A stretch of DNA of 33,897 bases from a virus. The stretch lies in IMG/VR virus record IMGVR_UViG_3300044712_000063, positions 1 to 33,897 of that record; one strand, written 5' to 3'. The number at the start of each line of letters is the position of its first letter. Position 1 is the first letter of the stretch. The notes beneath the pieces were generated by a model. It did not search any database and had not been told where the DNA came from. It saw only the letters and a list, made by a program, of their open reading frames with translations. Below, piece after piece: positions 3,136 to 27,131 of the stretch. A program made the position numbers and the translations under genes.

Positions 3136-4086
3136 ATGGCATTTGACGTATCAGCATTAGCTACATACACAAAGGAAAATCAAGACCTTTTAGTAGCATC
3201 ATCTGTATTAGGTAGCAAGACTGCTAGCTTAATCAAATCACAGGGCAATGTGATGGTAGGTGTGAAATCTAGCGAGAAGATTAACATCATGGACACTGAC
3301 GCATTCTTTCAGGATGGATCATCTTGCGGATTCAACGCATCAGGTACAACTACATTCACACAAAGAACAGTGACTGTAGGTAAAATTAAAGTGAATGAGG
3401 CTTTATGTCCAAAAGACTTAGAAAGAACTTATTTGCAAAAGGCTTTACCAGCAGGATCTAAATATGATTCAGTAGTATTTGCTGAGGAATATTCAACAAG
3501 AAAAACTGAAAAAATTGCTAGTCAATTAGAAATCGGTTTATGGCAGGGTGATACTTCATCTGCTGATGGTAATAAAAACAAATTTGATGGTGTTATCAAA
3601 TTAGCAACTGCTGCTGGCGGTGCTGTAGTAGATGCTAACACTAGCACATACTTCGGTAGTACTGCAACTGCAATCACTGCTGCAAATGTTATTGCTGTAT
3701 TTGATGCAGTATACAAAGCTATCCCAGCTGAGGTAGTAGCAAAAGATGACACAGCAATTTTCTGTGGTATGGATGTTTTCAGAACTTACACTATTGCATT
3801 AAAGAATGCAAACATGTTCAGCTATTCTTATGATGGCAAAGCTGATTCTGAGTTCGTATTGCCAGGTACATCAATCAAAGTGATTGCAGTACAAGGTTTA
3901 AATGGTACAAACAAAATCTATGCAATGAGAATTTCTAACTTATTCATTGGTACAGATTTATTGAATGAAGAAGAAAGATTTGAAATTTTCTATGCAAAAG
4001 AAGCTGATCAAGTTCGTTTTGTATCTGAGTTCAAAATGGGTGTAAACTTTGCATTCCCTGCGGAAATCGTAAAGTTCACAGTATAA
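3136..4086 (+). CDS. Major capsid protein (HK97-fold type inferred)
   Basis: 316 aa, placed after protease and scaffold, with a distinct codon usage suggestive of high expression. A strong terminator follows. The start context is AACAAATAACATGG. Confidence 0.75.
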   Translation: MAFDVSALATYTKENQDLLVASSVLGSKTASLIKSQGNVMVGVKSSEKINIMDTDAFFQDGSSCGFNASGTTTFTQRTVTVGKIKVNEALCPKDLERTYLQKALPAGSKYDSVVFAEEYSTRKTEKIASQLEIGLWQGDTSSADGNKNKFDGVIKLATAAGGAVVDANTSTYFGSTATAITAANVIAVFDAVYKAIPAEVVAKDDTAIFCGMDVFRTYTIALKNANMFSYSYDGKADSEFVLPGTSIKVIAVQGLNGTNKIYAMRISNLFIGTDLLNEEERFEIFYAKEADQVRFVSEFKMGVNFAFPAEIVKFTV

Positions 4087-4758: not shown

Positions 4759-5136
4759 ATGATATATTTAAGAAAAGGGCATACAGATGATGTGATAGTA
4801 ACTTTGAAAGAAAAGCAAACACTATCTGCACCAAATTATCTATTCTATTTCAAACAAAGATCTAGCAATGATGTGGTGAAATTTGTGCTATTGAATGCAG
4901 CAGACACATCACAATACAAAGATAGATACAACAAATTCAGCATTAATGGTGTGACACATTTTTCTAATGAGTTAGCAGGTGAGTGGGAATACATGATCTA
5001 TGAACAGACCAGTACTACCAATCTAGATCCTGCCCTGGCTACTACTTTACTAGAAACAGGCATCATGAGATTGTCAGATACTGATAGTTTCAATTTCACT
5101 GAATATTCAACGAATAACACATTTATAGTAAGATAA
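4759..5136 (+). CDS. Hypothetical virion-module protein
   Basis: ORF in the structural operon. ATG at 4759 is preferred over the track's TTG at 4756. Its TAA overlaps the portal ATG (TAATG). Confidence 0.7.
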   Translation: MIYLRKGHTDDVIVTLKEKQTLSAPNYLFYFKQRSSNDVVKFVLLNAADTSQYKDRYNKFSINGVTHFSNELAGEWEYMIYEQTSTTNLDPALATTLLETGIMRLSDTDSFNFTEYSTNNTFIVR

Positions 5137-7160
5137 TGACAAACGATTTAGTAATATTGAATTTTGCTGAGGCTAGACAGCCTGAGTACAGAGAAAAAAA
5201 GGGCAGCGGATATATTGAGTTTGGTGAGAGAAATGACTATCCTGGCTACCTTTTAAGCCTATACAATAAGAGTGCAAAGCACAATGCTATTGTGAGAGGG
5301 AAAGTGAATTACATCATAGGAAATGGATGGGCTACAAAAGAGGCTGATCCAGCTGCTGAGGCTTTCATCAATAAGGTGAACAGCTTTGATGAATCATTGA
5401 ATGATTTGACTAGAAAAGTAGACATTGACATTGAGGTGTTTGGTGGGGCATACTTAGAGGTGATATGGTCAGAGTTTGGCGGTCAGCTTACTGAGATAGG
5501 TCACATTGACTACACAAAGATCAGATCAAACAAAGACAATACATCATTTTGGTACAAACAGGACTGGACAGATAGAAAGGAAAAGGAAATAGTATTACCT
5601 GCATTCAATACACAGAACAGACAAGGAAAGCAGATTTTATACATTAAGGAATACAGACCAGGTTTAGAAACTTATGCACTACCTGGCTACATGGGGGCAT
5701 TGAACTTTATTGAATCAGATATTGAGGTATCTAGACATGTACTAGGAAATGCTCAGACAGGGTTTTCTGCTAGTAAACTGATCACATTGCCAAATGGTGA
5801 GCCTACACCTGATGAAAAAAGAAACATTGAAAAAAGGTTTGAAAATAGATTCACTGGATCTGATGGCAAAAAGTTCATTCTATCATTTGTGCAGAATGCA
5901 GACAGAAAGCCTATAGTTGAAGATCTAGGGGCATCTGATTTGACAAAAGAGGATTTCAGCAGAGTAGATACAATGATCCAGCAGAACATTTTTGCAGGAC
6001 ATCAGATCACTACACCTGCATTGTTTGGTATCAGTGAGCCTGGCAAATTAGGCACTAGATCAGAGATGAGGGATGGCTATGAGATATTCAAAAACACCTA
6101 TGTAAATGATAAGCAGCAATTCTTAGAAAGCATTTTCAATATGCTAGCTAGATTGAAAGGTGTGACACAGGAACTGTACATTCAGCCTGTAGAGCCTATC
6201 AGTTTTGAGTTTAGTGAAAATATCATTGCACAGGTAGCACCAAAAGAATGGATCTTAGAAAAGATGGGTATTGATGCATCCAAATATTTACCAATGCCTG
6301 ATGGGACAGTAGCACCACAGGATCAGTCAGTGAATGAGCATTTGAAAGGATTGAAAGGCAGAGAGTGGCAGAACATGCAAAGGATCATAAGAGAATATAC
6401 AAAGGGAAAGATCACCAGGGATCAGGCTACAGCTATGCTAAAAGGTGGCTATGCTTTGAGTGATGATGAGGTGAACACATGGCTAGGCGAGGATGAACAG
6501 ACACAGGCTTTCAAATTTAGTGAGGATGATGTGATCAATATCTTTGCACAGTTTGGTGAGGATGAGGACAAATACAGTGTTTTAAAAAAAAAGAATGTTA
6601 AGTTCAATTCAGTAGAATCAATGGATGATGATGAGGTGATGTCTATGCAGTTTGCTGATATGGTATTGAGTGATCTAGAAAAAAATGTGATTGACTTAGT
6701 GACTAAGGATAAGAGGATCACACCTGAGGTTTTGGCTGAGGTGACATCTACTGAATTGGCAATCATCATCAATGTGATGGAAAGACTTGACAAGGCAGGC
6801 ATTTTAAAACAAAAGGTAGTAGGTGGAGTGATTGAAAGACAGCCAGTGAAACCATTGAGTAAATTGACACCAGGTGAGCCTGCACAGACTACAAATTTCA
6901 AAGTAGTTTACAAATATGACTGGGATTTTGAAAAACTTGCTAGAGTTGGTGCAGTGGCAGATTCTAGTACATCTAGATCATTTTGTAAAAGATTGATGGC
7001 ATTGAAAAAAGTCTATAGCAGATCAGACATTCAGGCTATCACAGCTAGACTAGGCTACAGTGTTTTTGATCGTAGAGGTGGATGGTGGACAATGCCTACA
7101 GGTGATCACAGCCCTAGCTGTAGACATACATGGGTGAGCAATATAGTAATTAAAAAATAA
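5136..7160 (+). CDS. Portal protein with a C-terminal MuF / SPP1 gp7-like head-morphogenesis domain (fusion)
   Basis: 674 aa in the head module. The N-terminal ~450 aa is portal-sized. An acidic linker follows, and the C-terminus 'SRSFCKRL...GGWWTMPTGDHSPSCRHTW' resembles the 'C...HPNCRC' end of MuF-family proteins. Confidence 0.6.
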   Translation: MTNDLVILNFAEARQPEYREKKGSGYIEFGERNDYPGYLLSLYNKSAKHNAIVRGKVNYIIGNGWATKEADPAAEAFINKVNSFDESLNDLTRKVDIDIEVFGGAYLEVIWSEFGGQLTEIGHIDYTKIRSNKDNTSFWYKQDWTDRKEKEIVLPAFNTQNRQGKQILYIKEYRPGLETYALPGYMGALNFIESDIEVSRHVLGNAQTGFSASKLITLPNGEPTPDEKRNIEKRFENRFTGSDGKKFILSFVQNADRKPIVEDLGASDLTKEDFSRVDTMIQQNIFAGHQITTPALFGISEPGKLGTRSEMRDGYEIFKNTYVNDKQQFLESIFNMLARLKGVTQELYIQPVEPISFEFSENIIAQVAPKEWILEKMGIDASKYLPMPDGTVAPQDQSVNEHLKGLKGREWQNMQRIIREYTKGKITRDQATAMLKGGYALSDDEVNTWLGEDEQTQAFKFSEDDVINIFAQFGEDEDKYSVLKKKNVKFNSVESMDDDEVMSMQFADMVLSDLEKNVIDLVTKDKRITPEVLAEVTSTELAIIINVMERLDKAGILKQKVVGGVIERQPVKPLSKLTPGEPAQTTNFKVVYKYDWDFEKLARVGAVADSSTSRSFCKRLMALKKVYSRSDIQAITARLGYSVFDRRGGWWTMPTGDHSPSCRHTWVSNIVIKK

Positions 7161-20010: not shown

Positions 20011-20712
20011 ATGAACAAAGAGCAAATCATCACACAAATGTACCTGGACAAAGACATCAGCCAGGCAATCAGCAAAATGCAGCCAGTAGAATTGCAGGAT
20101 GATCTAAGACAGGAAATTTTTCTAGTGCTATGTGAGATGAATGATGAACGATTGTGTGGGATGTGGACTAGTGGGTATTTGAAATATTTTGTAGTGAGGA
20201 CAATGCTGAACATGGCAAAGAGTGACAGGTCTACTTTTTTCAATCAATTCAAAAAATCATTTACTGAATATTGTGATAACTATGAGAAAGCTGATGACAG
20301 CAATGGCATAGATGATGAGATGGATTCTAAGGTGAAAAAATCAATGGGTGAGTTACACTGGTACGAAAAAAATGTATTTGAACTATATGCTGACAATGGT
20401 AGGAATATTTTGAAATTGAGCAGAGATACGAAAATACCATATAGATCCCTATTTAAAACTGTAACTAAGGTTAAAAAGAAACTTTCAAAAGCAGTGAGAA
20501 AAGAGGACACCCAACAAAAAAAGCTGATAGGCAATTTCATTCATGCAGGCCTGGATGTAGTGATTGACATAAACAAAGAGACTGACATGGATGCACTACT
20601 TGACATCATGGATGAAGTGAATGAGTACATCAGAGAAAAAATTGAGGGTAGATCAAAGGATGATGTTTGCATCAAATCTATTGGAGGACTAAGAATCAAA
20701 ACTGTAATATGA
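20011..20712 (+). CDS. ECF-like RNA polymerase sigma factor with a C-terminal extension
   Basis: Region-2-like 'DLRQEIFLVL...YLKYFVVRTMLNMAKSDRSTFF' and region-4-like 'LHWYEKNVFELYADNGRNILKLSRDTKIPYRSLFKTVTKVKKKL'. Confidence 0.6.
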   Translation: MNKEQIITQMYLDKDISQAISKMQPVELQDDLRQEIFLVLCEMNDERLCGMWTSGYLKYFVVRTMLNMAKSDRSTFFNQFKKSFTEYCDNYEKADDSNGIDDEMDSKVKKSMGELHWYEKNVFELYADNGRNILKLSRDTKIPYRSLFKTVTKVKKKLSKAVRKEDTQQKKLIGNFIHAGLDVVIDINKETDMDALLDIMDEVNEYIREKIEGRSKDDVCIKSIGGLRIKTVI

Positions 20713-20963
20713 TAATTTTAAACATTCTAGCATCAGCACTATTCAGTTTCTATTTCATAGAGATGGGTAGATTTCACAAAAAATGGAAACTAGATTTCAG
20801 GCCATTCAACTGCCTGGTATGTCTACCTGCATGGGTAGCATTAGCACTGTACCTATTGCCAAACTATGTCACTGATGTGATTATAGTGATGATGGGTGCT
20901 GCAATCCTTTCCGTATTACTTAAAACATTAATGAACAAGGCTTATGAAACAGGAACACATTGA
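20709..20963 (+). CDS. Small integral membrane protein (three predicted TM segments), translationally coupled to the sigma factor gene
   Basis: ATG at 20709 overlaps the sigma gene's TGA (ATATGA). Hydrophobic segments are 'IILNILASALFSFYFI', 'CLVCLPAWVALALYLL' and 'VIIVMMGAAILSVLL'. Confidence 0.6.
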   Translation: MIILNILASALFSFYFIEMGRFHKKWKLDFRPFNCLVCLPAWVALALYLLPNYVTDVIIVMMGAAILSVLLKTLMNKAYETGTH

Positions 20964-21279
20964 TTTTATTGAAAAGAACAAAATCAATTTTGACACAGTA
21001 AAACTAGGGTACACTAGAAACATACCTATCCAGGATTTACAAATGTATGAGCATATCTATCATTTGTATTTGAATCCTAGCTATGTATTGACATACTGGT
21101 GTGGTGATTGTGTATTTGACATGCTAAAACGATTGATGTACTACTATGAGGGATTGCCAAAAGCAGAGCCTGTAGTAGAAGATAATCGCATTGAGTGGTA
21201 TGAAACACCTGTACAAGTTAGACTTAATGTACAAGAAGATCCAAAACCAAAAGCAAAACCGAAAGCAAAAAAGAAATAA
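20944..21279 (+). CDS. Hypothetical protein with a Lys/Pro-rich tail
   Basis: 111-aa ORF ending in 'KPKAKPKAKKK'. Confidence 0.6.
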   Translation: MKQEHIDFIEKNKINFDTVKLGYTRNIPIQDLQMYEHIYHLYLNPSYVLTYWCGDCVFDMLKRLMYYYEGLPKAEPVVEDNRIEWYETPVQVRLNVQEDPKPKAKPKAKKK

Positions 21280-21377: not shown

Positions 21378-21488
21378 ATGAAAGCACTACAATTTTTACA
21401 CTTTATTTTTATCTGTGTGCCACTGGCCTGCATGCTATATGTCACAGCTATCACATTGCAAAAAATTTTCAGCTTAATTAAGAAATGA
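21378..21488 (+). CDS. Small hydrophobic peptide (36 aa, MKALQFLHFIFICVPLACMLYVTAITLQKIFSLIKK), not in the ORF track
   Basis: Translated by hand. Its TGA overlaps the glycosyltransferase ATG (ATGA at 21485-21488). Confidence 0.45.
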   Translation: MKALQFLHFIFICVPLACMLYVTAITLQKIFSLIKK

Positions 21489-22492
21489 GACTACTAGTAA
21501 TCACCCAGCAAAACAGTGGGGTAGGCTATCACAGACTGATGCTACCTATCTACTACATGGCAAAAGATTATGCCTATTTCACAGATACTATAAATGATGA
21601 GGTACTATCAGAAAAGTTTGATCTAGTAGTAGTCAATAGGTACATACCCAGCTGCCACATATCTAATTTGATAGCATACAGGGAAAAGTATGGATTTAAA
21701 CTAATAGTAGACATTGATGACTACTGGCATCTAGATCCATGGCATATCCTTTATGGTCAGTATGAGGCACAGCCTATCATAGATCACATAAAAGCAGCTG
21801 ATCTAGTGACATGTACAAATATGAAATTAAGAGGTGAAATCAGCAAAATAAATGAGAATGTACATGTGATTCCAAATGCATTGCCATTTGGCAAAGATCA
21901 GTTCACAGATGTACATGTACCAGGTGAAAATGTCAGGGTAGTCTACACAGGATCTATCACACATCAAAAGGATGTGGCATTGCTAGGCAATCCATTCAAA
22001 AAGATTTTATCTGACAAAGTACTAGTCAATAAAATGCATTTTACATTGTGTGGATATGATCCAGCAAATGAATACAGCAAAATGATATGGCATAGAATGA
22101 TTCATGATTTTACATGTGGTCTGAAAATGCCAGGTGCAGTCAAAAAAGCATTGCCTATCATGGAATACATGAATTTCTATAATGAGGCTGACATTTCAGT
22201 AGTGCCACTGGTATCTAGCAAGTTCAATGGCATGAAATCAAACCTGAAAGTATTAGAGGCTGCCACTAAAAAGATCCCTGTCATTGTCAGCAATGTAGAT
22301 CCATACAAAGGCTGTCCCTATGCAGTCAAGGTAGAGAATCAAACTGACTGGTATAAAAACCTAAAAAAACTAGCAAATGATGCTATTTATAGGGAAGAGA
22401 TGGGTGAGGCAAACTATGAGTGGTGCAGCACTTATTTCCATTTGGATAAGATAAACGAACTGAGAGAGCAGCTGTACAGGTCATTGATATGA
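21485..22492 (+). CDS. Glycosyltransferase, GT-B fold (GT1/GT4-like)
   Basis: The C-terminal half 'ADISVVPLVSSKFNGMKSNLKVLEAATKKIPVIVSN' resembles the nucleotide-sugar-binding E-x7-E region of GT4 enzymes. Confidence 0.65.
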   Translation: MRLLVITQQNSGVGYHRLMLPIYYMAKDYAYFTDTINDEVLSEKFDLVVVNRYIPSCHISNLIAYREKYGFKLIVDIDDYWHLDPWHILYGQYEAQPIIDHIKAADLVTCTNMKLRGEISKINENVHVIPNALPFGKDQFTDVHVPGENVRVVYTGSITHQKDVALLGNPFKKILSDKVLVNKMHFTLCGYDPANEYSKMIWHRMIHDFTCGLKMPGAVKKALPIMEYMNFYNEADISVVPLVSSKFNGMKSNLKVLEAATKKIPVIVSNVDPYKGCPYAVKVENQTDWYKNLKKLANDAIYREEMGEANYEWCSTYFHLDKINELREQLYRSLI

Positions 22493-22746
22493 AAAAACAC
22501 ATAAAGGTCTACCTGGATCACTTTGACTATGATACAGATGACTACATACCATGTGAGGTCTGTGGCAGAAAGGCAGTAGACATTCACCATATCAAAGCCA
22601 GGGGGATGGGTGGATCAAATACAAAGGATGTGATTGAAAACCTACAGGCACTGTGCAGACAATGTCACCTGGACTATGGAGACAAAAAACAATGGATGGA
22701 ATATTTAAAAACTAAGCATAAAGAGACACTAGATGGCAAAAGGTAG
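22489..22746 (+). CDS. HNH endonuclease
   Basis: 'CEVCGRKAVDIHHIKARGMGGS...NLQALCRQCH' is a classical HNH / zinc-finger motif. Confidence 0.8.
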   Translation: MKKHIKVYLDHFDYDTDDYIPCEVCGRKAVDIHHIKARGMGGSNTKDVIENLQALCRQCHLDYGDKKQWMEYLKTKHKETLDGKR

Positions 22747-22855
22747 CAGCAATAGTACAAAGGTAAATTTCGGAAAACGAAAGCAGGGACATGCAAAAAA
22801 GAGTTTTAACAAACATTCACCTAGGCCAAAAGCCTACAGAGGTCAAGGCAGATGA
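22733..22855 (+). CDS. Very basic 40-aa protein (MAKGSSNSTKVNFGKRKQGHAKKSFNKHSPRPKAYRGQGR), not in the ORF track
   Basis: Translated by hand. It bridges the 22747-22851 gap, overlaps the HNH 3' end by 14 nt, and its TGA overlaps the next ATG (ATGA at 22852-22855). Confidence 0.5.
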   Translation: MAKGSSNSTKVNFGKRKQGHAKKSFNKHSPRPKAYRGQGR

Positions 22856-23097
22856 GAGACATCAATAAACGAAAGCTGAACAAGCTGATAGCCATTTGGC
22901 AGATCCTGACACATAAGTGCTACTATGTAGCTACCTGCAAAACAGGAATGAACAATGACACCATGAATCAGGTCAGCTTTATGACTAAGGGAATGGCTAA
23001 CACCATAGCCCACAATTTGACTGACATCATAGTACAGGATGAGATGCAGGACAATGCAGTGAATGAAGCCATGAATATATTAAACGGAATCAAATAA
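22852..23097 (+). CDS. Hypothetical protein
   Basis: 81-aa ORF. Confidence 0.6.
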   Translation: MRDINKRKLNKLIAIWQILTHKCYYVATCKTGMNNDTMNQVSFMTKGMANTIAHNLTDIIVQDEMQDNAVNEAMNILNGIK

Positions 23098-23104
23098 ACT
23101 ACCT

Positions 23105-23410
23105 ATGACACCAAAAGAAAAAGCAGCAGTACTAGTGAATCAAATGTATGAGGTATTCAATATGGATAAATATCCTGATGTTTTAATTGATGAAACTGAC
23201 AATGAATTGAATGACAAGCTATGGGACAAGAACAGAGAACTATTTGAATCAATCTATAAAAAGTTTGCCAAACAGTCTGCATTGATAGCAGTAGATGAAT
23301 TAATCTATTTTGGAGATACTGAACTTTTATCATCATTAATATTTGATGGAAATCAATATTGTGATAGAGATTTTTTTATAGATGTTAAAAAAGAAATAGA
23401 GGCACTATGA
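23105..23410 (+). CDS. Hypothetical protein
   Basis: 101-aa ORF. The 'AKQSALIAVDELI' motif recurs in many uncharacterised phage proteins, as far as I remember. Confidence 0.6.
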   Translation: MTPKEKAAVLVNQMYEVFNMDKYPDVLIDETDNELNDKLWDKNRELFESIYKKFAKQSALIAVDELIYFGDTELLSSLIFDGNQYCDRDFFIDVKKEIEAL

Positions 23411-23757
23411 TAATACTACCAGCACAAATTGAAAGCATAGCATCACGAAAGGATAAGACTGTCAGGATCACACTAGGCACACAGGAACTATCACCTGCAC
23501 AGGCTGCTGAGATCTTTCAGATGAATCAAAAGTTTTGCTATACAGCCATCAAAGAGGAACTATTCACTACCACAGAGGCAGATGAGATCAATGCATTGAA
23601 AACTGACCTTGACACAGAAAAGACACCCAGCCAAAGACTGAGGGGCATCCTTTATGTGAACTATCAGCAAAAGGCTGAGGGCTACAAAGACTTTGCCACA
23701 TACTACCAGGCAAAGATGGAAAAAATATGTGACCACTTTAAAAGCAAACTAGACTGA
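23407..23757 (+). CDS. Hypothetical protein
   Basis: 116-aa ORF with an ATGA overlap to the upstream gene. Confidence 0.6.
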   Translation: MIILPAQIESIASRKDKTVRITLGTQELSPAQAAEIFQMNQKFCYTAIKEELFTTTEADEINALKTDLDTEKTPSQRLRGILYVNYQQKAEGYKDFATYYQAKMEKICDHFKSKLD

Positions 23758-23758
23758 T

Positions 23759-24238
23759 ATGACATTCATACATAGAACTGCAATAATAGGAGACAATGTA
23801 CAAATAGGTGATAATGTGTACATAGGTGCATACTGCATCATAGGATCTGCACCTGAGTGGAAAGGCAAAGAGAAAGAGGACAAAGGTGTGATCATTCACA
23901 ATGGGGCTAGATTGACAGGACTGGTGACAGTAGATTCAGGGGCAGAAAAGCCTACAGTGATAGGTGAGAACTGCTACCTGATGAAACACAGCCATGTAGG
24001 TCATGATGCCACATTAGAGGATGGTGTCACTTTAAGCTGTGGGGCAAAAGTGGGTGGACATTCTATCATAGGCAAAGGGACAAACATAGGACTGAATGCA
24101 GTGATCCATCAGAAACTGAATGTGCCAGGTGGGTGCATGATAGGTGCATCAGCATTCATAGGAAAGAAAACAGAATTGAAACCAAATGCAAAGTATGCAG
24201 GTGTGCCTGCCAAATATATAGGAGAAAACATCAGATGA
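23759..24238 (+). CDS. Left-handed beta-helix (hexapeptide-repeat) acyltransferase, LpxA-like, lacking the C-terminal helical domain
   Basis: Hexapeptide repeats run from 'IHRTAIIGDNVQIGDNVYIG'. 'LMKHSHVGHDATLEDGVTLSCGAKVGGHSIIG' parallels the E. coli LpxA 'AHIAHDC' catalytic-His region as I remember it. It is 159 aa versus about 260 aa for LpxA. Confidence 0.65.
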   Translation: MTFIHRTAIIGDNVQIGDNVYIGAYCIIGSAPEWKGKEKEDKGVIIHNGARLTGLVTVDSGAEKPTVIGENCYLMKHSHVGHDATLEDGVTLSCGAKVGGHSIIGKGTNIGLNAVIHQKLNVPGGCMIGASAFIGKKTELKPNAKYAGVPAKYIGENIR

Positions 24239-24861
24239 GAGTAGCAGTCATATTTTTAAATTATCAGAGGCATGATCATACATCCAGGACACTGGAAAGC
24301 ATCCACAATGCAGGGCATCCATTTGACCTGTTCACTATTGACAGGAAAGGCATTGCAGCTGCCATCAATGAGGGGCTAGATAAGGCATGGGACTATGATG
24401 CAATAGTCACAGCAGCAAATGACATAGTAATGCCTGACAACTGGCTTAAAACAATGATAGGCTATATCCAGGCAATACCAAACACAGGTATGTGTGGAAT
24501 CCACTGTGTAGAGGGTGCAGGTACACCTGAAAATATCAATGGTGTGCTAGTCAATAGATCATTCACAGCATTTGGCAATGTGATCATACCTGCCACAGCA
24601 TTCAGAGAGGTGGGCTACTTTGCAGAGGAATACGATCCATACGGAATGCAGGATTCTGACTATTCATATAGACTTAACAAACTAGGCTTTGTCAATTACT
24701 ACATCCCTAGCATCACCAGCAATCACATAGGCCATGATGTAGGTCAGCAAACTGACTACAGAAAGATGAAAGATGAGGGGCTTAACAAAGCACAGGATGT
24801 ATGGAATAAATTGACAGCCTGGTATGATTCAACTAATAACTACAAAAGATTGAAAAGATGA
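24235..24861 (+). CDS. Glycosyltransferase family 2
   Basis: 'VAVIFLNYQRHDHT...', 'AAAINEGL', 'VTAANDIVMPDNW' and 'MQDSDYSYRL' give a GT-A/GT2 pattern. ATG at 24235 overlaps the upstream TGA. The track's start at 24133 is an out-of-frame overlap with the acyltransferase gene. Confidence 0.7.
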   Translation: MRVAVIFLNYQRHDHTSRTLESIHNAGHPFDLFTIDRKGIAAAINEGLDKAWDYDAIVTAANDIVMPDNWLKTMIGYIQAIPNTGMCGIHCVEGAGTPENINGVLVNRSFTAFGNVIIPATAFREVGYFAEEYDPYGMQDSDYSYRLNKLGFVNYYIPSITSNHIGHDVGQQTDYRKMKDEGLNKAQDVWNKLTAWYDSTNNYKRLKR

Positions 24862-25124
24862 TACCTATAGTGATACCAATTTTGTGCCACAATGATGAGA
24901 CTATTGTGCTGAGAGACTTAGATGTAAAAACTACCTACACTAGATTGACTGAGGTAGATTTCATGTTTTTCACCATAGACTTTGCATGTAGGTATGAACA
25001 GGATGGGAAAGAGTACACAGAGATAGTATCAGGTGAGGATTCATTTGTGAGCAGTCTATCATTCAAACAATTTCAGGACATAGTGTATAAAACAAATATT
25101 TATGGCAAAGGCAGCAGCAACTAA
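24858..25124 (+). CDS. Hypothetical protein
   Basis: 88-aa ORF with an ATGA overlap to the upstream gene. Confidence 0.55.
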   Translation: MIPIVIPILCHNDETIVLRDLDVKTTYTRLTEVDFMFFTIDFACRYEQDGKEYTEIVSGEDSFVSSLSFKQFQDIVYKTNIYGKGSSN

Positions 25125-25596
25125 GAAAAAAGCTGCATCTAAAAAGGCAGCAGAAAAGAAACCAGTGGGGAGACCTAAAAACATAGAGACACCTGAGATC
25201 ATGTGGCAGCTATTCCAGCAATATGCAAAAGAGACAAAGAGCAAACCATTAATAGTGAAAGACTGGGTGGGTGGCATAGCAAAAGAGGTCTACAGAGAAA
25301 AGGAAAGGCCATTAACATTGGAGGGCTTTGAAATCTTTGTGATGGACAAACTAGACATGTCAGATCTAGATCAGTATTTTGCAAATAGAGAGGGCAGGTA
25401 CACAAATTTTGTGTCTGTCTGTTCACGCATAAGGAAAAACATCAGAGAGGATCAGATAGCAGGCGGCATGGCAGGGATATACAATCCATCCATCACACAG
25501 CGGTTGAATGGTCTGACTGAAAAGATCCAGGAAGATGGTAACAAAGAGGTGACCATCAAAGTGAAGTACGAAAAGAAAGAAACACCAAAAGACTAG
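25102..25596 (+). CDS. terS: Terminase small subunit
   Basis: It has a Lys/Ala-rich N-terminus, 'GRPKNIETPE', 'PLTLEGFEIFV' (HTH) and '...IAGGMAGIYNPSI', a remembered Terminase_2-type pattern. It lies upstream of terL. Confidence 0.7.
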   Translation: MAKAAATKKKAASKKAAEKKPVGRPKNIETPEIMWQLFQQYAKETKSKPLIVKDWVGGIAKEVYREKERPLTLEGFEIFVMDKLDMSDLDQYFANREGRYTNFVSVCSRIRKNIREDQIAGGMAGIYNPSITQRLNGLTEKIQEDGNKEVTIKVKYEKKETPKD

Positions 25597-25656: not shown

Positions 25657-25962
25657 ATGAAATGGAAACACAAAGTAACTGGATGGACTGCACAGACAGC
25701 ATATTATGAAATGCCAAAATCATCAATTACATGTACAATGATAAAAGATGATAAGCAGGTAAATTTTCATATACCACACGAATTGATTGATGCTGATGAT
25801 AACTGGATACCACAGCCTGATGAAAGATGGCTATATAAGCAAATGACTGCTATGGAGTTTATGGATGCATTTGCAATGACTACTGATCCATCAGGACAAT
25901 CACATGATGCATTTGTTGTAAAATCTTTAATTGATAAAAACTATAATATCACAAACGAATAG
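25657..25962 (+). CDS. Hypothetical protein between terS and terL
   Basis: 101-aa ORF. Its TAG overlaps the terL GTG start. Confidence 0.6.
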   Translation: MKWKHKVTGWTAQTAYYEMPKSSITCTMIKDDKQVNFHIPHELIDADDNWIPQPDERWLYKQMTAMEFMDAFAMTTDPSGQSHDAFVVKSLIDKNYNITNE

Positions 25963-27131
25963 TGGAAAAGACAGTCAGACTAAATGAATTGCATGTAAAC
26001 CAGCAAAAGGTAGTAGATGGCCATAAAAGGTTTTCTGTGCTATCATGTGGTAGAAGATGGGGCAAATCAGCCCTGGCTATCAATCTACTATCTGAGACTG
26101 CCATAGATGGCAAACTAGCTGGGTATTTCACACCTACATACAAACTACTTGATGGGACATTCAATGAGTGCCTGCATGCATTAGAGCCTATCATATCCAG
26201 GAAAAATGATCATCAATTCATTGAACTGATCACAGGTGGCAAAATAGAGTTTTGGAGTTTAGAGAATGAACTGGCAGGTAGATCTAGGAGGTATCACAGA
26301 AACATCATAGATGAAGCGGCATTCGTCAAAAACCTATGGCACAGATGGACTGAATCAATCAGACCTACACTGACAGACTTTAAAGGGGATGCATTCTTTC
26401 TGTCTACACCTAAGGGCAAAAATGACTTTCATAGAATATGGCAGAGAGGCAAATCAGGTGACAAAGGATGGACTAGCTGGCAGATGTCCACCTATGACAA
26501 TCCCTACATAGATCCTAGTGAGATTGATGAGGCTAGATCAGATCTGCCTGAGTTAGCATTCAGCCAGGAATACATGGCAGAGTTCAATGAGAATGTGGCA
26601 AATCCGTTTGGTGCTATGTTTATCCAGCAGTGTACCTATCCAATGAGCAATGAGCCAGCGGTATGCTATGGCATTGACCTGGCAAAGTCTTTTGACTACA
26701 CAGTGATCATAGGCCTAGATAACAATGGCACAGTGTGTCACTTTGATCGTTTCCAGGAAGATTGGAGGTCTACTAAGCAGAGGATCATGAATCTGCCCAG
26801 GTCACCTATCCTGATGGATAGCACTGGTGTGGGTGATCCTATCTTTGAGGATCTACAGGCACAGGGACTAGATGTGACAGGGTTTAAATTCAGCAGCACA
26901 TCTAAGCAGCAGCTGATGACAGGACTGCAAACAGCAATACAGCAAAGAAAGATTGCATTTCCTGAGGGTGCGATCACAGCTGAACTGAACATCTTTGAAT
27001 ATGAGTTCACACCAGGTGGTGTCAAATATTCTGCACCTAGTGGTTTTCATGATGACTGTGTGATGGCTTTGGCACTGGCATGGAATAACCATAATCAAAG
27101 GAGGGGCAGTGGTAGATACAGCTTTGCGTAA
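25962..27131 (+). CDS. terL: Terminase large subunit
   Basis: Walker A 'CGRRWGKS' and Walker B 'IIDEAAF' are present. Nuclease acidic residues lie in 'YGIDLAKSFDYTVI', 'LMDSTGVGD' and 'FHDDCVMALALA'. The start is GTG. Confidence 0.9.
   Translation: MEKTVRLNELHVNQQKVVDGHKRFSVLSCGRRWGKSALAINLLSETAIDGKLAGYFTPTYKLLDGTFNECLHALEPIISRKNDHQFIELITGGKIEFWSLENELAGRSRRYHRNIIDEAAFVKNLWHRWTESIRPTLTDFKGDAFFLSTPKGKNDFHRIWQRGKSGDKGWTSWQMSTYDNPYIDPSEIDEARSDLPELAFSQEYMAEFNENVANPFGAMFIQQCTYPMSNEPAVCYGIDLAKSFDYTVIIGLDNNGTVCHFDRFQEDWRSTKQRIMNLPRSPILMDSTGVGDPIFEDLQAQGLDVTGFKFSSTSKQQLMTGLQTAIQQRKIAFPEGAITAELNIFEYEFTPGGVKYSAPSGFHDDCVMALALAWNNHNQRRGSGRYSFA

What the first reader, a model, noticed from the sequence alone, without database searches (positions are those of the whole stretch)
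21378..24861. Glycan-modification cluster (GT-B glycosyltransferase, truncated LpxA-like acyltransferase, GT2) just upstream of the packaging genes
A small, apparently integrase-less phage devotes about 10% of its genome to an operon with two glycosyltransferases of different folds (21485-22492 GT-B type; 24235-24861 GT2). It also encodes a 159-aa hexapeptide-repeat acyltransferase. That protein keeps the LpxA-like 'H-x-x-H-D' catalytic region ('SHVGHDA') but lacks the C-terminal helical domain of LpxA. Interspersed are an HNH endonuclease, a 36-aa hydrophobic leader peptide, a 40-aa very basic peptide and three unknown ORFs. There is no flippase or GtrA-like membrane partner and no integrase, so this is not a classical seroconversion cassette. 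There are also no base-hydroxymethylase or dNMP-kinase genes that would point to DNA hypermodification. The genes share the backbone's CpG-poor, CTAG-rich signature, so they are long-standing residents. Plausible roles are glycosylation or acylation of virion proteins (as described for some mycobacteriophages), remodelling of a host envelope glycolipid or capsule precursor to block superinfection, or a novel DNA sugar modification.
Basis: partly seen in the sequence, partly recalled or inferred. Interest (0 to 1): 0.62.

Follow-up and report, generated by a model that had tools for sequence, protein, structure and literature searches.

The report
Phage glycan-building cluster with mini-LpxA
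A complete, uncultured 34-kb lytic phage carries three intact sugar-handling enzymes (a core GT-B glycosyltransferase plus a swappable pair of a miniature LpxA-like acyltransferase and a small GT2) that most likely build a short acetylated glycan on a non-DNA target; the target is unknown, and the miniature acyltransferase is a widespread, uncharacterised phage family.

Summary
In detail: every ORF, domain and coordinate holds, and so do the negative claims (no integrase, GtrA, thymidylate-synthase homolog, TET/JBP or C5-methylase). The interpretation needs revising. The region is not one old operon.

- **GT-B** is a core gene of this uncultured ~33-kb phage family (34 of 35 terminase-anchored relatives). 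It belongs to the same family as phAPEC8 gp073/gp074.
- **LbH plus GT2** is an accessory pair. The two are always together, occur in 22 of 35 relatives, and are absent from five complete ones. In most relatives they sit beside GT-B.
- In the window, an HNH gene, a 40-aa basic ORF and three unknown ORFs split them. The HNH and basic ORF look packaging-associated.

The LbH is a "mini-LpxA". It keeps LpxA's H122, H125, D126, H144, H160, Q161 and N198 and lacks two coils and the C-terminal domain. Its clade (70–83% identical) also occurs in crAss-like and ~114-kb phages, always beside GT-A enzymes. Cellular cousins, including the PDB 8e62 group, occupy the N-acetyltransferase slot of UDP-diacetamido-uronic-acid clusters.

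DNA glycosylation is unlikely. I cannot separate virion-protein glycosylation (favoured) from host-envelope remodelling. The host is unknown.

The parts
20667..20963 (+). Small multi-pass membrane protein (98 aa, motif RPFNC..CL..W). Syntenic with GT-B throughout the family. A possible membrane partner, but that role is uncertain.
   Evidence: Found upstream of GT-B in all relatives with enough flank. Its homologs directly abut GT-B in L034 and L062. Kyte-Doolittle 19-residue maximum 2.36. No significant family hit.
21378..21488 (+). 36-aa single-pass hydrophobic ORF. Its stop overlaps the GT-B start (ATGA).
   Evidence: A hydrophobic ORF of 33-44 aa abuts the GT-B start in every member of the window's subclade despite strong sequence divergence. 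It is absent in more distant relatives.
21485..22492 (+). GT-B-fold, GT4-like glycosyltransferase (335 aa). Core gene of the phage family.
   Evidence: Pfam Glyco_trans_1_4 at 3e-9; phrog_7162 at 5e-61. Model pLDDT 91.5; nearest solved folds are GlgM, PglA, BshA, HepE and TarM. Present in 34 of 35 TerL-anchored loci. Invariant D76, D78, D79, H87, H160, D163, N248, K251, S252, K255 and E258, also in phAPEC8 gp073/gp074.
22489..22746 (+). Small HNH endonuclease (85 aa). An insertion between GT-B and LbH; probably packaging-associated and not part of the glycan chemistry.
   Evidence: PF01844 at 2.7e-10. Absent from the compact GT-B/basic/LbH/GT2 arrangement of many relatives and lies near TerS elsewhere.
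22733..22855 (+). Conserved 40-aa very basic protein (MAK..FGKRK.G..K..NK..YRGQGR).
   Evidence: The 39-40-aa ORF is kept in more than 40 relatives at 48-95% identity. Its position varies: after GT-B, after HNH, or directly before TerS. Only a weak hit to phrog_17967, E 0.012.
22852..23757 (+). Three ORFs of unknown function (81, 101 and 116 aa) that separate GT-B from LbH in the window.
   Evidence: No significant family hits apart from phrog_21441 (unknown function) for the 101-aa ORF. The 101-aa ORF was found in no relative. The 116-aa ORF recurs next to GT2 or upstream of TerS in relatives.
23759..24238 (+). 'Mini-LpxA' left-handed beta-helix acyl/acetyltransferase (159 aa). Accessory gene, always paired with GT2.
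   Evidence: Hexapep at 2e-20. PDB 8e62 at 1.5e-33 over the full length, then LpxAs. Keeps E. coli LpxA H122, H125, D126, H144, H160, Q161 and N198; lacks residues ~38-72 and the C-terminal domain. Over 1200 homologs at 70-77% identity. Supported phage clade, 97/97.
24235..24861 (+). Minimal GT-A-fold GT2 glycosyltransferase (208 aa). Start overlaps the LbH stop.
   Evidence: Glycos_transf_2 at 2.6e-6. Model pLDDT 93.4; GT-A neighbours ppGalNAc-T2, WrtF, SpsA and TarP. D63 invariant with N62 nearly so (the 'ND' of a DxD-equivalent), and invariant Y136, G137, D140, R146, H164 and D168. LbH lies immediately upstream in 71 of 77 GT2-anchored loci.

Best explanation
**Shown.** The region holds three intact, soluble, cytoplasmic enzymes.
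- A GT4-like GT-B glycosyltransferase that is a core gene of this lytic phage family.
- An accessory, translationally coupled pair: a miniature LpxA/8e62-like beta-helix acyltransferase and a minimal GT-A GT2.

In relatives the three genes are usually contiguous, in either order. In the window they are split by an HNH gene, a small basic ORF and three unknown ORFs.

**Inferred mechanism.**
1. The enzymes draw on host nucleotide-sugar pools.
2. The mini-LpxA acetylates (or short-chain acylates) position 3 of a UDP-HexNAc-type sugar, from an acyl-CoA donor. Its active-site histidines match LpxA, and its cellular cousins occupy the 3-N-acetyltransferase slot of UDP-GlcNAc3NAcA pathways.
3. The GT2 (an inverting family) and the GT-B (GT4-like, a retaining family) each add one sugar. 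The product is a short, acetylated glycan.

**Inferred acceptor, the weakest step.** One or more virion structural proteins, made late in infection. This would be analogous to mycobacteriophage and chlorovirus virion glycosylation, with the accessory enzymes varying the glycan between related phages.
For: **Enzymes look intact and active.**
- Domains and folds.
- Invariant catalytic-type residues.
- No membrane segments in the three enzymes.

**The genes are functionally linked.**
- LbH and GT2 co-occur in 22 of 22 cases, and LbH lies immediately upstream of GT2 in 71 of 77 loci.
- They are contiguous with GT-B in two different gene orders.

**LbH always has glycosyltransferase partners.** In crAss-like and ~114-kb phages it sits between two GT-A enzymes with overlapping start and stop codons.

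**LbH chemistry.**
- LpxA residues are retained.
- Cellular relatives lie between GFO/IDH/MocA and DegT genes, with a UDP-sugar 6-dehydrogenase nearby, in capsule clusters.

**Pointers to a virion target.**
- GT-B is core in a phage with no integrase.
- The cluster lies directly upstream of TerS and TerL on a one-strand genome.
- In crAss-like phages the cassette is embedded in the structural module next to the ring proteins.
- Relatives swap in a PLOD-type GT (a protein-glycosylating family, 1e-23) and a sugar-O-methyltransferase-like enzyme at the same locus.
- No GtrA was found.

**DNA routes are excluded**.
Against: - Nothing identifies the acceptor directly.
- Fold neighbours are generic (TM ~0.6-0.7, 11-16% identity) and include enzymes that act on lipid-linked acceptors, such as PglA.
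- No S/T/P-rich C-terminal acceptor tails or long collagen-like repeats were seen in the structural proteins.
- Small membrane ORFs next to GT-B and the capsule or O-antigen context of the LbH's cellular cousins fit an envelope target just as well.
- In the ~114-kb phage and in phAPEC8 the homologous genes lie in replication or early-type neighbourhoods, not structural ones.
- The acyl donor and sugar substrate of the mini-LpxA are untested. The phage encodes no dehydrogenase or aminotransferase to make a 3-amino sugar.
- Expression timing is unknown, because the promoter and terminator scans were at chance level.
Confidence: 0.4

Rival explanations
1. Host-envelope remodelling. The enzymes act at the inner face of the membrane on undecaprenyl-phosphate-linked O-antigen, capsule or LOS precursors, or on another envelope glycolipid. 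They add or acetylate sugars so that the receptor is masked. This would block superinfection or stop progeny being lost on cell debris.
For: - GT4-type fold neighbours include PglA, and Pfam GT4-type hits are typical of lipid-linked pathways.
- Cellular cousins of the LbH lie in capsule clusters with Wza, Wzc and Wzx.
- The crAss-like phages pair LbH with a GT6-like enzyme, a family used in O-antigen-type glycans.
- A positionally conserved single-pass ORF abuts GT-B, and the membrane protein o20667 is syntenic with it.
- Cyanophage GT sets are commonly read as cell-surface modifiers (PMC12801897).
Against: - The phage is lytic, with no integrase.
- GT-B is a core gene, not a moron.
- No GtrA was found, and no flippase or polymerase turned up in the ORF scans.
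- The small TM ORF exists only in one subclade.
- All known phage seroconversion systems of this type are in temperate phages (established knowledge).
Confidence: 0.3
2. Another cytoplasmic acceptor or a metabolic role. The enzymes glycosylate a host or phage protein that is not part of the virion, or the conserved basic 40-aa peptide, or a small molecule. Alternatively the mini-LpxA mainly diverts UDP-GlcNAc-type precursors, for example making a dead-end 3-O-acyl sugar that interferes with host lipid A or cell-wall synthesis.
For: - The LbH keeps LpxA's UDP-GlcNAc-site histidines.
- It is far more conserved (70-83%) than its GT partners, which are sometimes not even homologous. That is expected for an enzyme tied to a universal metabolite.
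- Fold neighbours of GT-B include small-molecule GTs such as BshA and GlgM.
- The basic ORF lies between GT-B and LbH in 41 loci.
Against: - LbH is never found without glycosyltransferases beside it, which argues for a glycan product and against simple precursor diversion.
- The basic ORF moves to the TerS side in other clades, and it is absent from the crAss-like and 114-kb contexts and from some GT-B genomes.
Confidence: 0.15
3. DNA sugar hypermodification. The glycosyltransferases decorate phage DNA to evade restriction.
For: - The locus lies in a hotspot where relatives carry ParB-methyltransferase-like, SAM-methyltransferase-like and PAPS-reductase-like genes (these identities were read from the sequences and not profile-tested, except for the 223-aa Methyltransf_24 enzyme).
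- Phage GT-A and GT-B enzymes do glycosylate DNA in other phages (bioRxiv 10.1101/2023.12.21.572611; PMC13326640).
Against: - All known routes need a hydroxyl handle made by a thymidylate-synthase homolog or by a C5-methyltransferase plus a TET/JBP dioxygenase. None is present in the complete genome in six frames at E <= 1 (the Tet_JBP model had no control hit above its cut-off, so that negative is weaker).
- No dNMP kinase or DNA polymerase was detected in the ORF scans.
- T4 beta-GT is not among the top 50 fold neighbours.
- The genome shows extreme avoidance of CG-containing restriction-type palindromes: TCGA 1 observed against about 111 expected, GCGC 0 against 41. That is the strategy of a phage with unprotected DNA (inference).
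- Pyle et al. regard GT contigs without such partners as unlikely DNA modifiers.
Confidence: 0.05
4. Inactive or decaying passengers. The genes are hitch-hiking remnants with no current function.
For: - The window's arrangement is disrupted by insertions compared with the compact form in relatives.
- The first Glu of the GT4 E-x7-E motif is not kept in GT-B, and the first Asp of DxD is replaced in GT2 (my reading of the alignments).
Against: - All three ORFs are full length.
- Their family-specific invariant residues hold across proteins only 26-50% identical.
- The models are confident.
- GT-B is present in 34 of 35 relatives.
- LbH is 70-83% identical across unrelated phages, which indicates strong purifying selection.
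Confidence: 0.03

Closest known systems
Mycobacteriophage virion glycosylation (Freeman et al. 2023, Cell Host Microbe; cited) and chlorovirus PBCV-1 capsid glycosylation
   Same: - Virus-encoded, cytoplasmic glycosyltransferases with no membrane translocation machinery.
- The genes vary between related viruses.
- The proposed target is virion proteins.
   Different: - No sequence relationship was shown.
- The hosts are different and, here, unknown.
- No acceptor tails were recognised in the structural proteins.
- Here a mini-LpxA-type acyltransferase is part of the kit.
- Nothing has been tested experimentally.
E. coli LpxA (UDP-GlcNAc 3-O-acyltransferase)
   Same: - Left-handed beta-helix.
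- Keeps H122, H125, D126, H144, H160, Q161 and N198.
- Hits the NCBIfam lpxA models at 2.6e-24 and 6.4e-24.
   Different: - 159 aa against 262 aa.
- Lacks two coils (~residues 38-72) and the entire C-terminal helical domain.
- Scores 85.9 bits against the equivalog cut-off of 231.
- Sits in a phage glycosyltransferase operon and not in lpxD-fabZ-lpxA-lpxB.
PDB 8e62 ('UDP-N-acetylglucosamine acyltransferase', 189 aa) and its ~186-aa cellular relatives, which occupy the WlbB/WbpD slot of UDP-2,3-diacetamido-2,3-dideoxy-glucuronic acid clusters
   Same: - Best solved relative: E 1.5e-33, about 44% identity, full length including the G-x-P-A-K-x-I-G ending.
- Same short LpxA-like architecture.
- The His-Asp, GGH and IHQ motifs are shared.
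   Different: - The cellular proteins are about 25 aa longer at the C-terminus and fall outside the phage clade.
- They lie between GFO/IDH/MocA and DegT genes, which the phage lacks.
- I could not determine the source organism or assayed activity of 8e62.
- The pathway assignment comes from gene order plus my knowledge of WlbA/B/C and WbpA/B/D/E. It was not tested here.
phAPEC8 (Phapecoctavirus) gp071-gp074 tandem glycosyltransferases and the Klebsiella phage KP2025 homolog
   Same: - gp073 and gp074 belong to the same GT-B family: 29-35% identity over the full length, with all signature residues invariant.
- They also sit in a multi-GT cluster in a lytic phage.
   Different: - 150-kb myoviruses of Enterobacteria.
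- The cluster lies between the endolysin and the primase.
- No LbH partner was found at E <= 1e-3.
- The function is also unknown, with nothing in the literature searched.
GtrABC-type O-antigen seroconversion cassettes of temperate phages
   Same: Phage-encoded GT2-type enzyme. There is a weak hit to the GtrB-like phrog_841, E 5.6e-4.
   Different: - No GtrA.
- No integrase.
- No membrane GtrC-type transferase.
- The GT2 here is a 208-aa soluble protein.
Phage DNA glycosylation (T4 alpha/beta-GT; C5-MT + 5mYOX + GT clusters; 5hoC arabinosylation)
   Same: Phage GT-A and GT-B enzymes, which sometimes lie near the terminase and near ParB or methyltransferase genes.
   Different: - No thymidylate-synthase homolog, 5mYOX/TET or C5-methyltransferase anywhere in the complete genome.
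- T4 beta-GT is not among the top structural neighbours.

Membership tests
LpxA (acyl-ACP--UDP-GlcNAc O-acyltransferase) | Catalytic His125 and the UDP-GlcNAc-site residues H122, H144 and H160 (E. coli numbering) | tested here: met
   Alignment to E. coli K-12 LpxA. H125, D126, H144, H160, Q161 and N198 are invariant, and H122 is aligned with H79.
LpxA (acyl-ACP--UDP-GlcNAc O-acyltransferase) | C-terminal alpha-helical domain (~residues 200-262) and a full-length beta-helix | tested here: not met
   The phage protein ends two to four residues after the N198 equivalent and lacks ~residues 38-72.
LpxA (acyl-ACP--UDP-GlcNAc O-acyltransferase) | Scores above the curated equivalog cut-off (TIGR01852, 231 bits) | tested here: not met
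   85.9 bits.
LpxA (acyl-ACP--UDP-GlcNAc O-acyltransferase) | Uses acyl-ACP to 3-O-acylate UDP-GlcNAc | not testable with these tools
   Needs an enzyme assay.
WlbB/WbpD-position UDP-aminosugar 3-N-acetyltransferase (8e62-like group) | Gene lies between a GFO/IDH/MocA 3-dehydrogenase and a DegT aminotransferase, with a UDP-sugar 6-dehydrogenase nearby | tested here: not met
   True for the cellular relatives. None of these genes is in the window or in any phage context examined.
WlbB/WbpD-position UDP-aminosugar 3-N-acetyltransferase (8e62-like group) | Falls in the same clade as the cellular ~186-aa proteins | tested here: not met
   The phage ~160-aa proteins form their own supported clade (97/97). 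The 8e62 and Psychrobacter groups lie outside it.
GT4-like GT-B glycosyltransferase | Two-Rossmann GT-B fold with GT4-type structural neighbours, and a Pfam GT1/GT4-clan hit above cut-off | tested here: met
   pLDDT 91.5. Neighbours GlgM, PglA, BshA, HepE and TarM at E 1e-15 to 1e-11. Glyco_trans_1_4 scores 37.6 bits against a cut-off of 27.
GT4-like GT-B glycosyltransferase | Canonical E-x7-E motif in the C-terminal domain | tested here: inconclusive
   The second Glu (E258) is invariant. The position eight residues upstream is not Glu. Instead N248, K251, S252 and K255 are invariant (my reading of the motif register).
GT2 (GT-A fold, inverting) | GT-A fold and a Pfam Glycos_transf_2 hit above cut-off | tested here: met
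   pLDDT 93.4. Neighbours ppGalNAc-T2, WrtF, SpsA and TarP. PF00535 scores 27.9 bits against a cut-off of 23.3.
GT2 (GT-A fold, inverting) | DxD metal-binding motif and a downstream acidic catalytic residue | tested here: inconclusive
   The motif reads (A/G/S/D)-N-D, with D63 invariant and N62 nearly so. The first Asp is present only in the distant 260-aa relatives. 'YG.(Q/D)D' has invariant D140.
GtrABC seroconversion cassette | GtrA flippase-like membrane protein, a GtrB bactoprenol GT with C-terminal TM segments, a serotype-specific GtrC, and a temperate phage with an integrase | tested here: not met
   No PF04138, PF00589 or PF00239 in six frames. The GT2 has no TM segment.
Phage DNA glycosylation pathway | An enzyme that makes the hydroxyl handle: a thymidylate-synthase homolog, or a C5-methyltransferase plus a 5mYOX/TET dioxygenase | tested here: not met
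   PF00303, PF12851 and PF00145 are absent at E <= 1 in the complete genome. Controls rang above cut-off for PF00303 and PF00145 but not for PF12851.
Virion glycosylation system (mycobacteriophage type) | Glycan demonstrably attached to capsid or tail proteins and dependent on the phage GTs | not testable with these tools
   Needs purified virions and mass spectrometry. Only positional evidence is available.

The most novel reading that the evidence does not exclude
The ~160-aa mini-LpxA defines a phage-specific, horizontally exchanged 'glyco-acetyl kit'. It makes a nucleotide sugar that the host does not make (a 3-O- or 3-N-acyl UDP-HexNAc). Partner GT-A and GT-B enzymes then place that sugar on virion proteins of several unrelated aquatic phage lineages, crAss-like phages included. 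That would be the first virion-glycosylation system described outside actinobacteriophages and giant viruses, and a new enzymatic use of the LpxA scaffold.
Probability: 0.25. Interest if true: 0.7.

Novelty: new variant of a known kind. Interest (0 to 1): 0.45.

Why it matters
Most glycosyltransferase genes in viral metagenomes have no known target. Pyle et al. found about 65% of them with no DNA-modification partner.

This case contributes four things:
- A well-defined, very common and strongly conserved phage enzyme family, the mini-LpxA, which always travels with glycosyltransferases.
- A GT-B family that is core to one phage lineage and also present in cultured E. coli phages (phAPEC8 type), so the question can be tested in laboratory strains.
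- Evidence that the module is exchanged between unrelated phages, including crAss-like phages.
- A solved structure of a close relative (8e62) on which to model substrates.

If the target is the virion, it would extend phage glycosylation well beyond mycobacteriophages, with consequences for adsorption, stability and immune recognition. If the target is the host envelope, it would be a seroconversion-like function in strictly lytic phages.

Tried and rejected
- **Near-identical DNA in cultured phages:** none.
- **Cultured relatives through TerL or the putative capsid protein:** best TerL match 35% identity to a Halorubrum phage, and none for the capsid protein. No host can be taken from isolates.
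- **Host through prophage or co-binned relatives:** nothing close in 401 sampled Bacteroidota genomes plus 5 named MAGs. Hints of a Bacteroidota host are too weak to claim: a Bacteroides-type sigma-70 hit at E 0.005, DUF5053 and LbH sharing with crAss-like phages.
- **Identity of PDB 8e62:** not found in the literature or among deposited phages. The nearest sequences are metagenomic.
- **'LbH family is phage-restricted':** Cellular ~186-aa relatives exist, but they lie outside the phage clade.
- **'LbH+GT2 is one conserved pair in all lineages':** rejected. The GT2 beside LbH in the crAss-like and 114-kb phages is not detectably homologous to the window's GT2.
- **Basic 40-aa peptide as the dedicated glycosylation substrate:** rejected as the leading idea because its position tracks HNH and TerS.
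- **Collagen-like or S/T-rich acceptor regions in structural proteins:** nothing convincing.
- **Promoter and terminator scan:** at chance level.
- **Rfam and tRNA scans:** nothing.
- **Sequence-only PDB searches for GT-B and GT2:** uninformative.
- **Earlier findings of this scan:** none.

Full report
**1. Observation**

The window is a complete virus record of 33,897 bp with a 127-bp exact direct terminal repeat. All substantial ORFs lie on the + strand. Every ORF named in the finding exists at the stated coordinates.

Profile searches confirm the domains:

| ORF | Coordinates | Result |
|---|---|---|
| GT-B | 21485-22492 | Glyco_trans_1_4 3e-9, above cut-off; phrog_7162 'glycosyltransferase' 5e-61 |
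| HNH | 22489-22746 | PF01844 3e-10 |
| LbH | 23759-24238 | Hexapep 2e-20 |
| GT2 | 24235-24861 | Glycos_transf_2 2.6e-6, above cut-off |
| TerS | 25102-25596 | PHROG terminase small subunit |
| TerL | 25962-27131 | PHROG terminase large subunit |

AlphaFold models built on alignments of relatives are confident:
- GT-B has pLDDT 91.5 and a two-Rossmann fold. Its nearest solved structures are the GT4-type enzymes GlgM, PglA, BshA, HepE and TarM.
- GT2 has pLDDT 93.4 and a GT-A fold. Its nearest structures are ppGalNAc-T2, WrtF, SpsA and TarP.

None of the three enzymes has a membrane segment.

No tyrosine or serine integrase, GtrA, thymidylate-synthase homolog, TET/JBP dioxygenase or C5-methyltransferase was found. 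Control genomes gave hits above cut-off for every model except Tet_JBP, so that one negative is weaker. Pfam and PHROG scans of the other ORFs found no kinase or polymerase.

The compositional signature is real. CpG observed/expected is 0.06 in the cluster and 0.17 elsewhere, and CTAG is 1.55 and 1.72.

**2. The region is not one old operon**

I fetched relatives by GT-B (42 loci), by GT2 (more than 100 loci) and, to avoid query bias, by TerL. They belong to a large uncultured family of phages, mostly 32-35 kb (up to about 42 kb).

Among the 35 TerL-anchored loci with at least 6.5 kb upstream:
- GT-B is present in 34.
- LbH and GT2 are present in 22, and always together.
- The single locus without GT-B (L240) has a different set instead: a 260-aa GT2, a PLOD-type GT and a methyltransferase.

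Five relatives that are 98-100% complete have GT-B but no LbH anywhere in the record. So GT-B is a core gene, and LbH plus GT2 is an accessory pair.

The genes are nevertheless linked:
- LbH lies immediately upstream of GT2 in 71 of 77 GT2-anchored loci.
- In most relatives the three enzymes are contiguous, either as GT-B / 40-aa ORF / LbH / GT2 (for example L100, L116, L123) or as LbH / GT2 / GT-B (L248, L263, L266, L268, L283, L288, L290).
- Staying neighbours through a rearrangement is good evidence for a shared function.

In the window the compact form is interrupted by the HNH gene and three unknown ORFs. The HNH gene and the conserved basic 40-aa ORF (MAK..FGKRK.G..NK..YRGQGR) move with the TerS side of the locus in other clades. 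I therefore read them as packaging-associated and not part of the glycan chemistry.

The stretch between GT-B and the terminase is a cargo hotspot. Relatives carry an alternative GT2 + PLOD-like GT (PF25342, 1e-23) + Methyltransf_24 set there. They also carry ParB-methyltransferase-like, SAM-methyltransferase-like and PAPS-reductase-like genes, which I identified by reading the sequences and did not profile-test.

**3. The LbH is the most informative gene**

Its best solved relative is PDB 8e62, not LpxA. 8e62 is a 189-aa protein named 'UDP-N-acetylglucosamine acyltransferase' (E 1.5e-33, full length, about 44% identity). LpxAs follow (3r0s at 6e-20).

Aligned to E. coli K-12 LpxA, the phage protein:
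- keeps H122, H125, D126, H144, H160, Q161 and N198;
- lacks two helix coils (~residues 38-72);
- ends two to four residues after the N198 equivalent, so it lacks the whole C-terminal helical domain.

It scores 85.9 bits against the lpxA equivalog cut-off of 231. It is therefore LpxA-like in its active site but is not an LpxA.

The family is large. More than 1,200 proteins of 157-165 aa are 70-77% identical to the window's. Close copies occur in two unrelated phage types, and in both the LbH overlaps its neighbours' start and stop codons:
- A ~114-kb phage with RNR, RecA and dUTPase genes: GT2 (251 aa) / LbH / GT2 (210 aa).
- crAss-like phages: GT6-like (251 aa) / LbH / GT2 (212 aa), embedded in the structural module beside the ring proteins.

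The GT partners differ between lineages. The window's GT2 is not detectably homologous to those 210-212-aa GT2s, while the LbH copies are 74-83% identical.

A maximum-likelihood tree places the window, crAss-like and 114-kb-phage copies in one supported clade of ~160-aa proteins (97/97). Copies from unrelated phages are intermixed at shallow depth, which fits horizontal exchange.

Cellular relatives exist but fall outside that clade. They are ~186-aa proteins, and the group includes 8e62's nearest relatives and Psychrobacter proteins. They lie in capsule-type clusters between a GFO/IDH/MocA oxidoreductase and a DegT aminotransferase, next to a UDP-sugar 6-dehydrogenase. From established knowledge of the WlbA-WlbB-WlbC and WbpA/B/D/E pathways (recalled, not tested here), that is the slot of the 3-N-acetyltransferase that finishes UDP-2,3-diacetamido-2,3-dideoxy-glucuronic acid.

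LpxA and this slot have one thing in common: acyl transfer to position 3 of a UDP-GlcNAc-derived sugar. That is the basis for my inference about the phage enzyme. The phage encodes no dehydrogenase or aminotransferase, so its substrate must come from the host or must be a hydroxyl group.

**4. GT-B and GT2 residues**

GT-B has family-specific invariant residues: H16-R17, D76/D78/D79 in 'VDIDDYWH', H87, H160, D163, F247-N248, K251-S252, K255 and E258. All are also invariant in phAPEC8 gp073 and gp074 and in the Klebsiella phage KP2025 homolog. The family thus has cultured members in lytic E. coli phages, where four GT genes sit in tandem between the endolysin and the primase. The first Glu of the usual GT4 E-x7-E motif is not kept (my reading of the register).

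GT2 has an (A/G/S/D)-N-D motif in place of DxD, in which D63 is invariant and N62 nearly so, and an invariant 'YG.(Q/D)D…R'.

Both enzymes look active. Their fold neighbours are too distant (TM 0.6-0.7, 11-16% identity) to identify the acceptor.

**5. What it most likely does**

- **Shown:** three intact, soluble enzymes, functionally linked by gene neighbourhood, in a lytic phage.
- **Inferred:** they use host nucleotide sugars. The mini-LpxA acetylates or acylates position 3 of a UDP-HexNAc-type sugar. GT2 and GT-B each add one sugar. The product is a short acetylated glycan.
- **Acceptor, not shown.** I favour virion proteins, at about 0.4, for these reasons:
  - GT-B is core to a strictly lytic family.
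  - It sits directly before the packaging and structural genes.
  - In crAss-like phages the LbH cassette lies inside the structural module.
  - Relatives substitute a PLOD-type (protein-glycosylating) GT and a sugar-O-methyltransferase-like enzyme at the same locus.
  - There is no translocation machinery.
- **Host-envelope remodelling** remains a serious rival, at about 0.3:
  - GT4-type enzymes and the LbH's cellular cousins belong to capsule and O-antigen pathways.
  - A positionally conserved single-pass ORF abuts GT-B in this subclade.
  - A small membrane protein, o20667, is syntenic with GT-B across the family.
- **DNA glycosylation** is unlikely, at about 0.05:
  - Every known route needs a thymidylate-synthase homolog, or a C5-methyltransferase plus a TET-like dioxygenase, and the complete genome has none.
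  - The genome avoids CG-containing palindromes to an extreme degree, which is the behaviour of unprotected DNA.

**6. What is known and what is new**

Phage glycosyltransferase clusters are known in three roles: DNA glycosylation, seroconversion and virion glycosylation. This cluster fails the defining features of the first two and cannot be tested for the third.

New here:
- The mini-LpxA phage clade and its constant association with glycosyltransferases across unrelated phages.
- The finding that GT-B is a lineage core gene that shares a family with genes of phAPEC8-type phages.

I found no literature on either.

The host is unknown. There are no cultured relatives and nothing close in 401 sampled Bacteroidota genomes.

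**Verdict:** a real and moderately interesting gene set of a known general kind, with an uncharacterised enzyme family at its centre.

Noticed in passing
whole window; compare L005, L011, L014, L009 with L012, L100, L116, and with L046, L050: Extreme CpG depletion. Observed/expected is 0.16-0.17 genome-wide. TCGA occurs once against ~111 expected, CCGG twice against 41, and GCGC never against 41. Arg codons are almost all AGA or AGG. The depletion is lineage-specific: close relatives score 0.10-0.22, while relatives only ~55-60% identical in protein score a normal ~0.94-1.05. The unrelated ~114-kb and crAss-like phages that share the LbH clade are also depleted (0.24-0.29). Sampled Bacteroidota loci are normal. 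This suggests a shared host or a shared CpG-directed defence pressure.
   Followed up: partly
window 22733-22855: A conserved 39-40-aa highly basic protein (MAK..FGKRK.G..K..NK..YRGQGR) present in more than 40 relatives. Its position shifts between after GT-B, after HNH and directly before TerS. It may be a DNA-binding or packaging-associated peptide. The only family hit is a weak one to phrog_17967.
   Followed up: partly
window 22489-22746: An 85-aa HNH endonuclease close to TerS and TerL. Small HNH proteins next to terminases assist packaging in some phages (HK97 gp74 type, from memory), so this may be a packaging factor and not a homing endonuclease. It is present in many but not all relatives.
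   Followed up: no
L016:11362-13429, L017, L023, L032, L035, L240: At the same locus these relatives carry an alternative three-gene set: a 260-aa GT2, a PLOD-type GT domain protein (PF25342, 1e-23) and a Methyltransf_24 / rhamnosyl-O-methyltransferase-like enzyme. L240 has this set and no GT-B.
   Followed up: partly
window 20011-20712, 20667-20963, 20944-21279: A conserved block upstream of GT-B throughout the family: a 233-aa protein with a weak Bacteroides-type sigma-70 hit (E 0.005), a small membrane protein with an RPFNC..CL..W motif, and a CxxC protein ending in a basic KKRGRPKK-like tail.
   Followed up: partly
window 5136-7160 and 100-1758: A 674-aa ORF with portal-protein PHROG hits (about 1e-30) lies downstream of the protease and the putative capsid gene. 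A 552-aa 'virion structural protein' precedes the protease. The head-gene order is unusual, and the putative capsid protein (3136-4086) has no match in deposited phages.
   Followed up: no
L013, L019, L021, L023, L025, L026, L033 (immediately downstream of GT-B): Proteins of about 390 aa that, by my reading of the sequence, have a ParB-like N-terminus fused to a methyltransferase. L015 has a PAPS-reductase-like gene at the same hotspot. None of these was profile-tested. They look like anti-restriction cargo next to GT-B.
   Followed up: no
L050:6353-7270 and L210:4341-5267 (crAss-like phages): A 305-308-aa protein with no Pfam hit directly precedes the GT6-like gene. It contains an 'HDCDIIF' stretch that resembles a DxD motif and could be a third glycosyltransferase of the cassette.
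   Followed up: no
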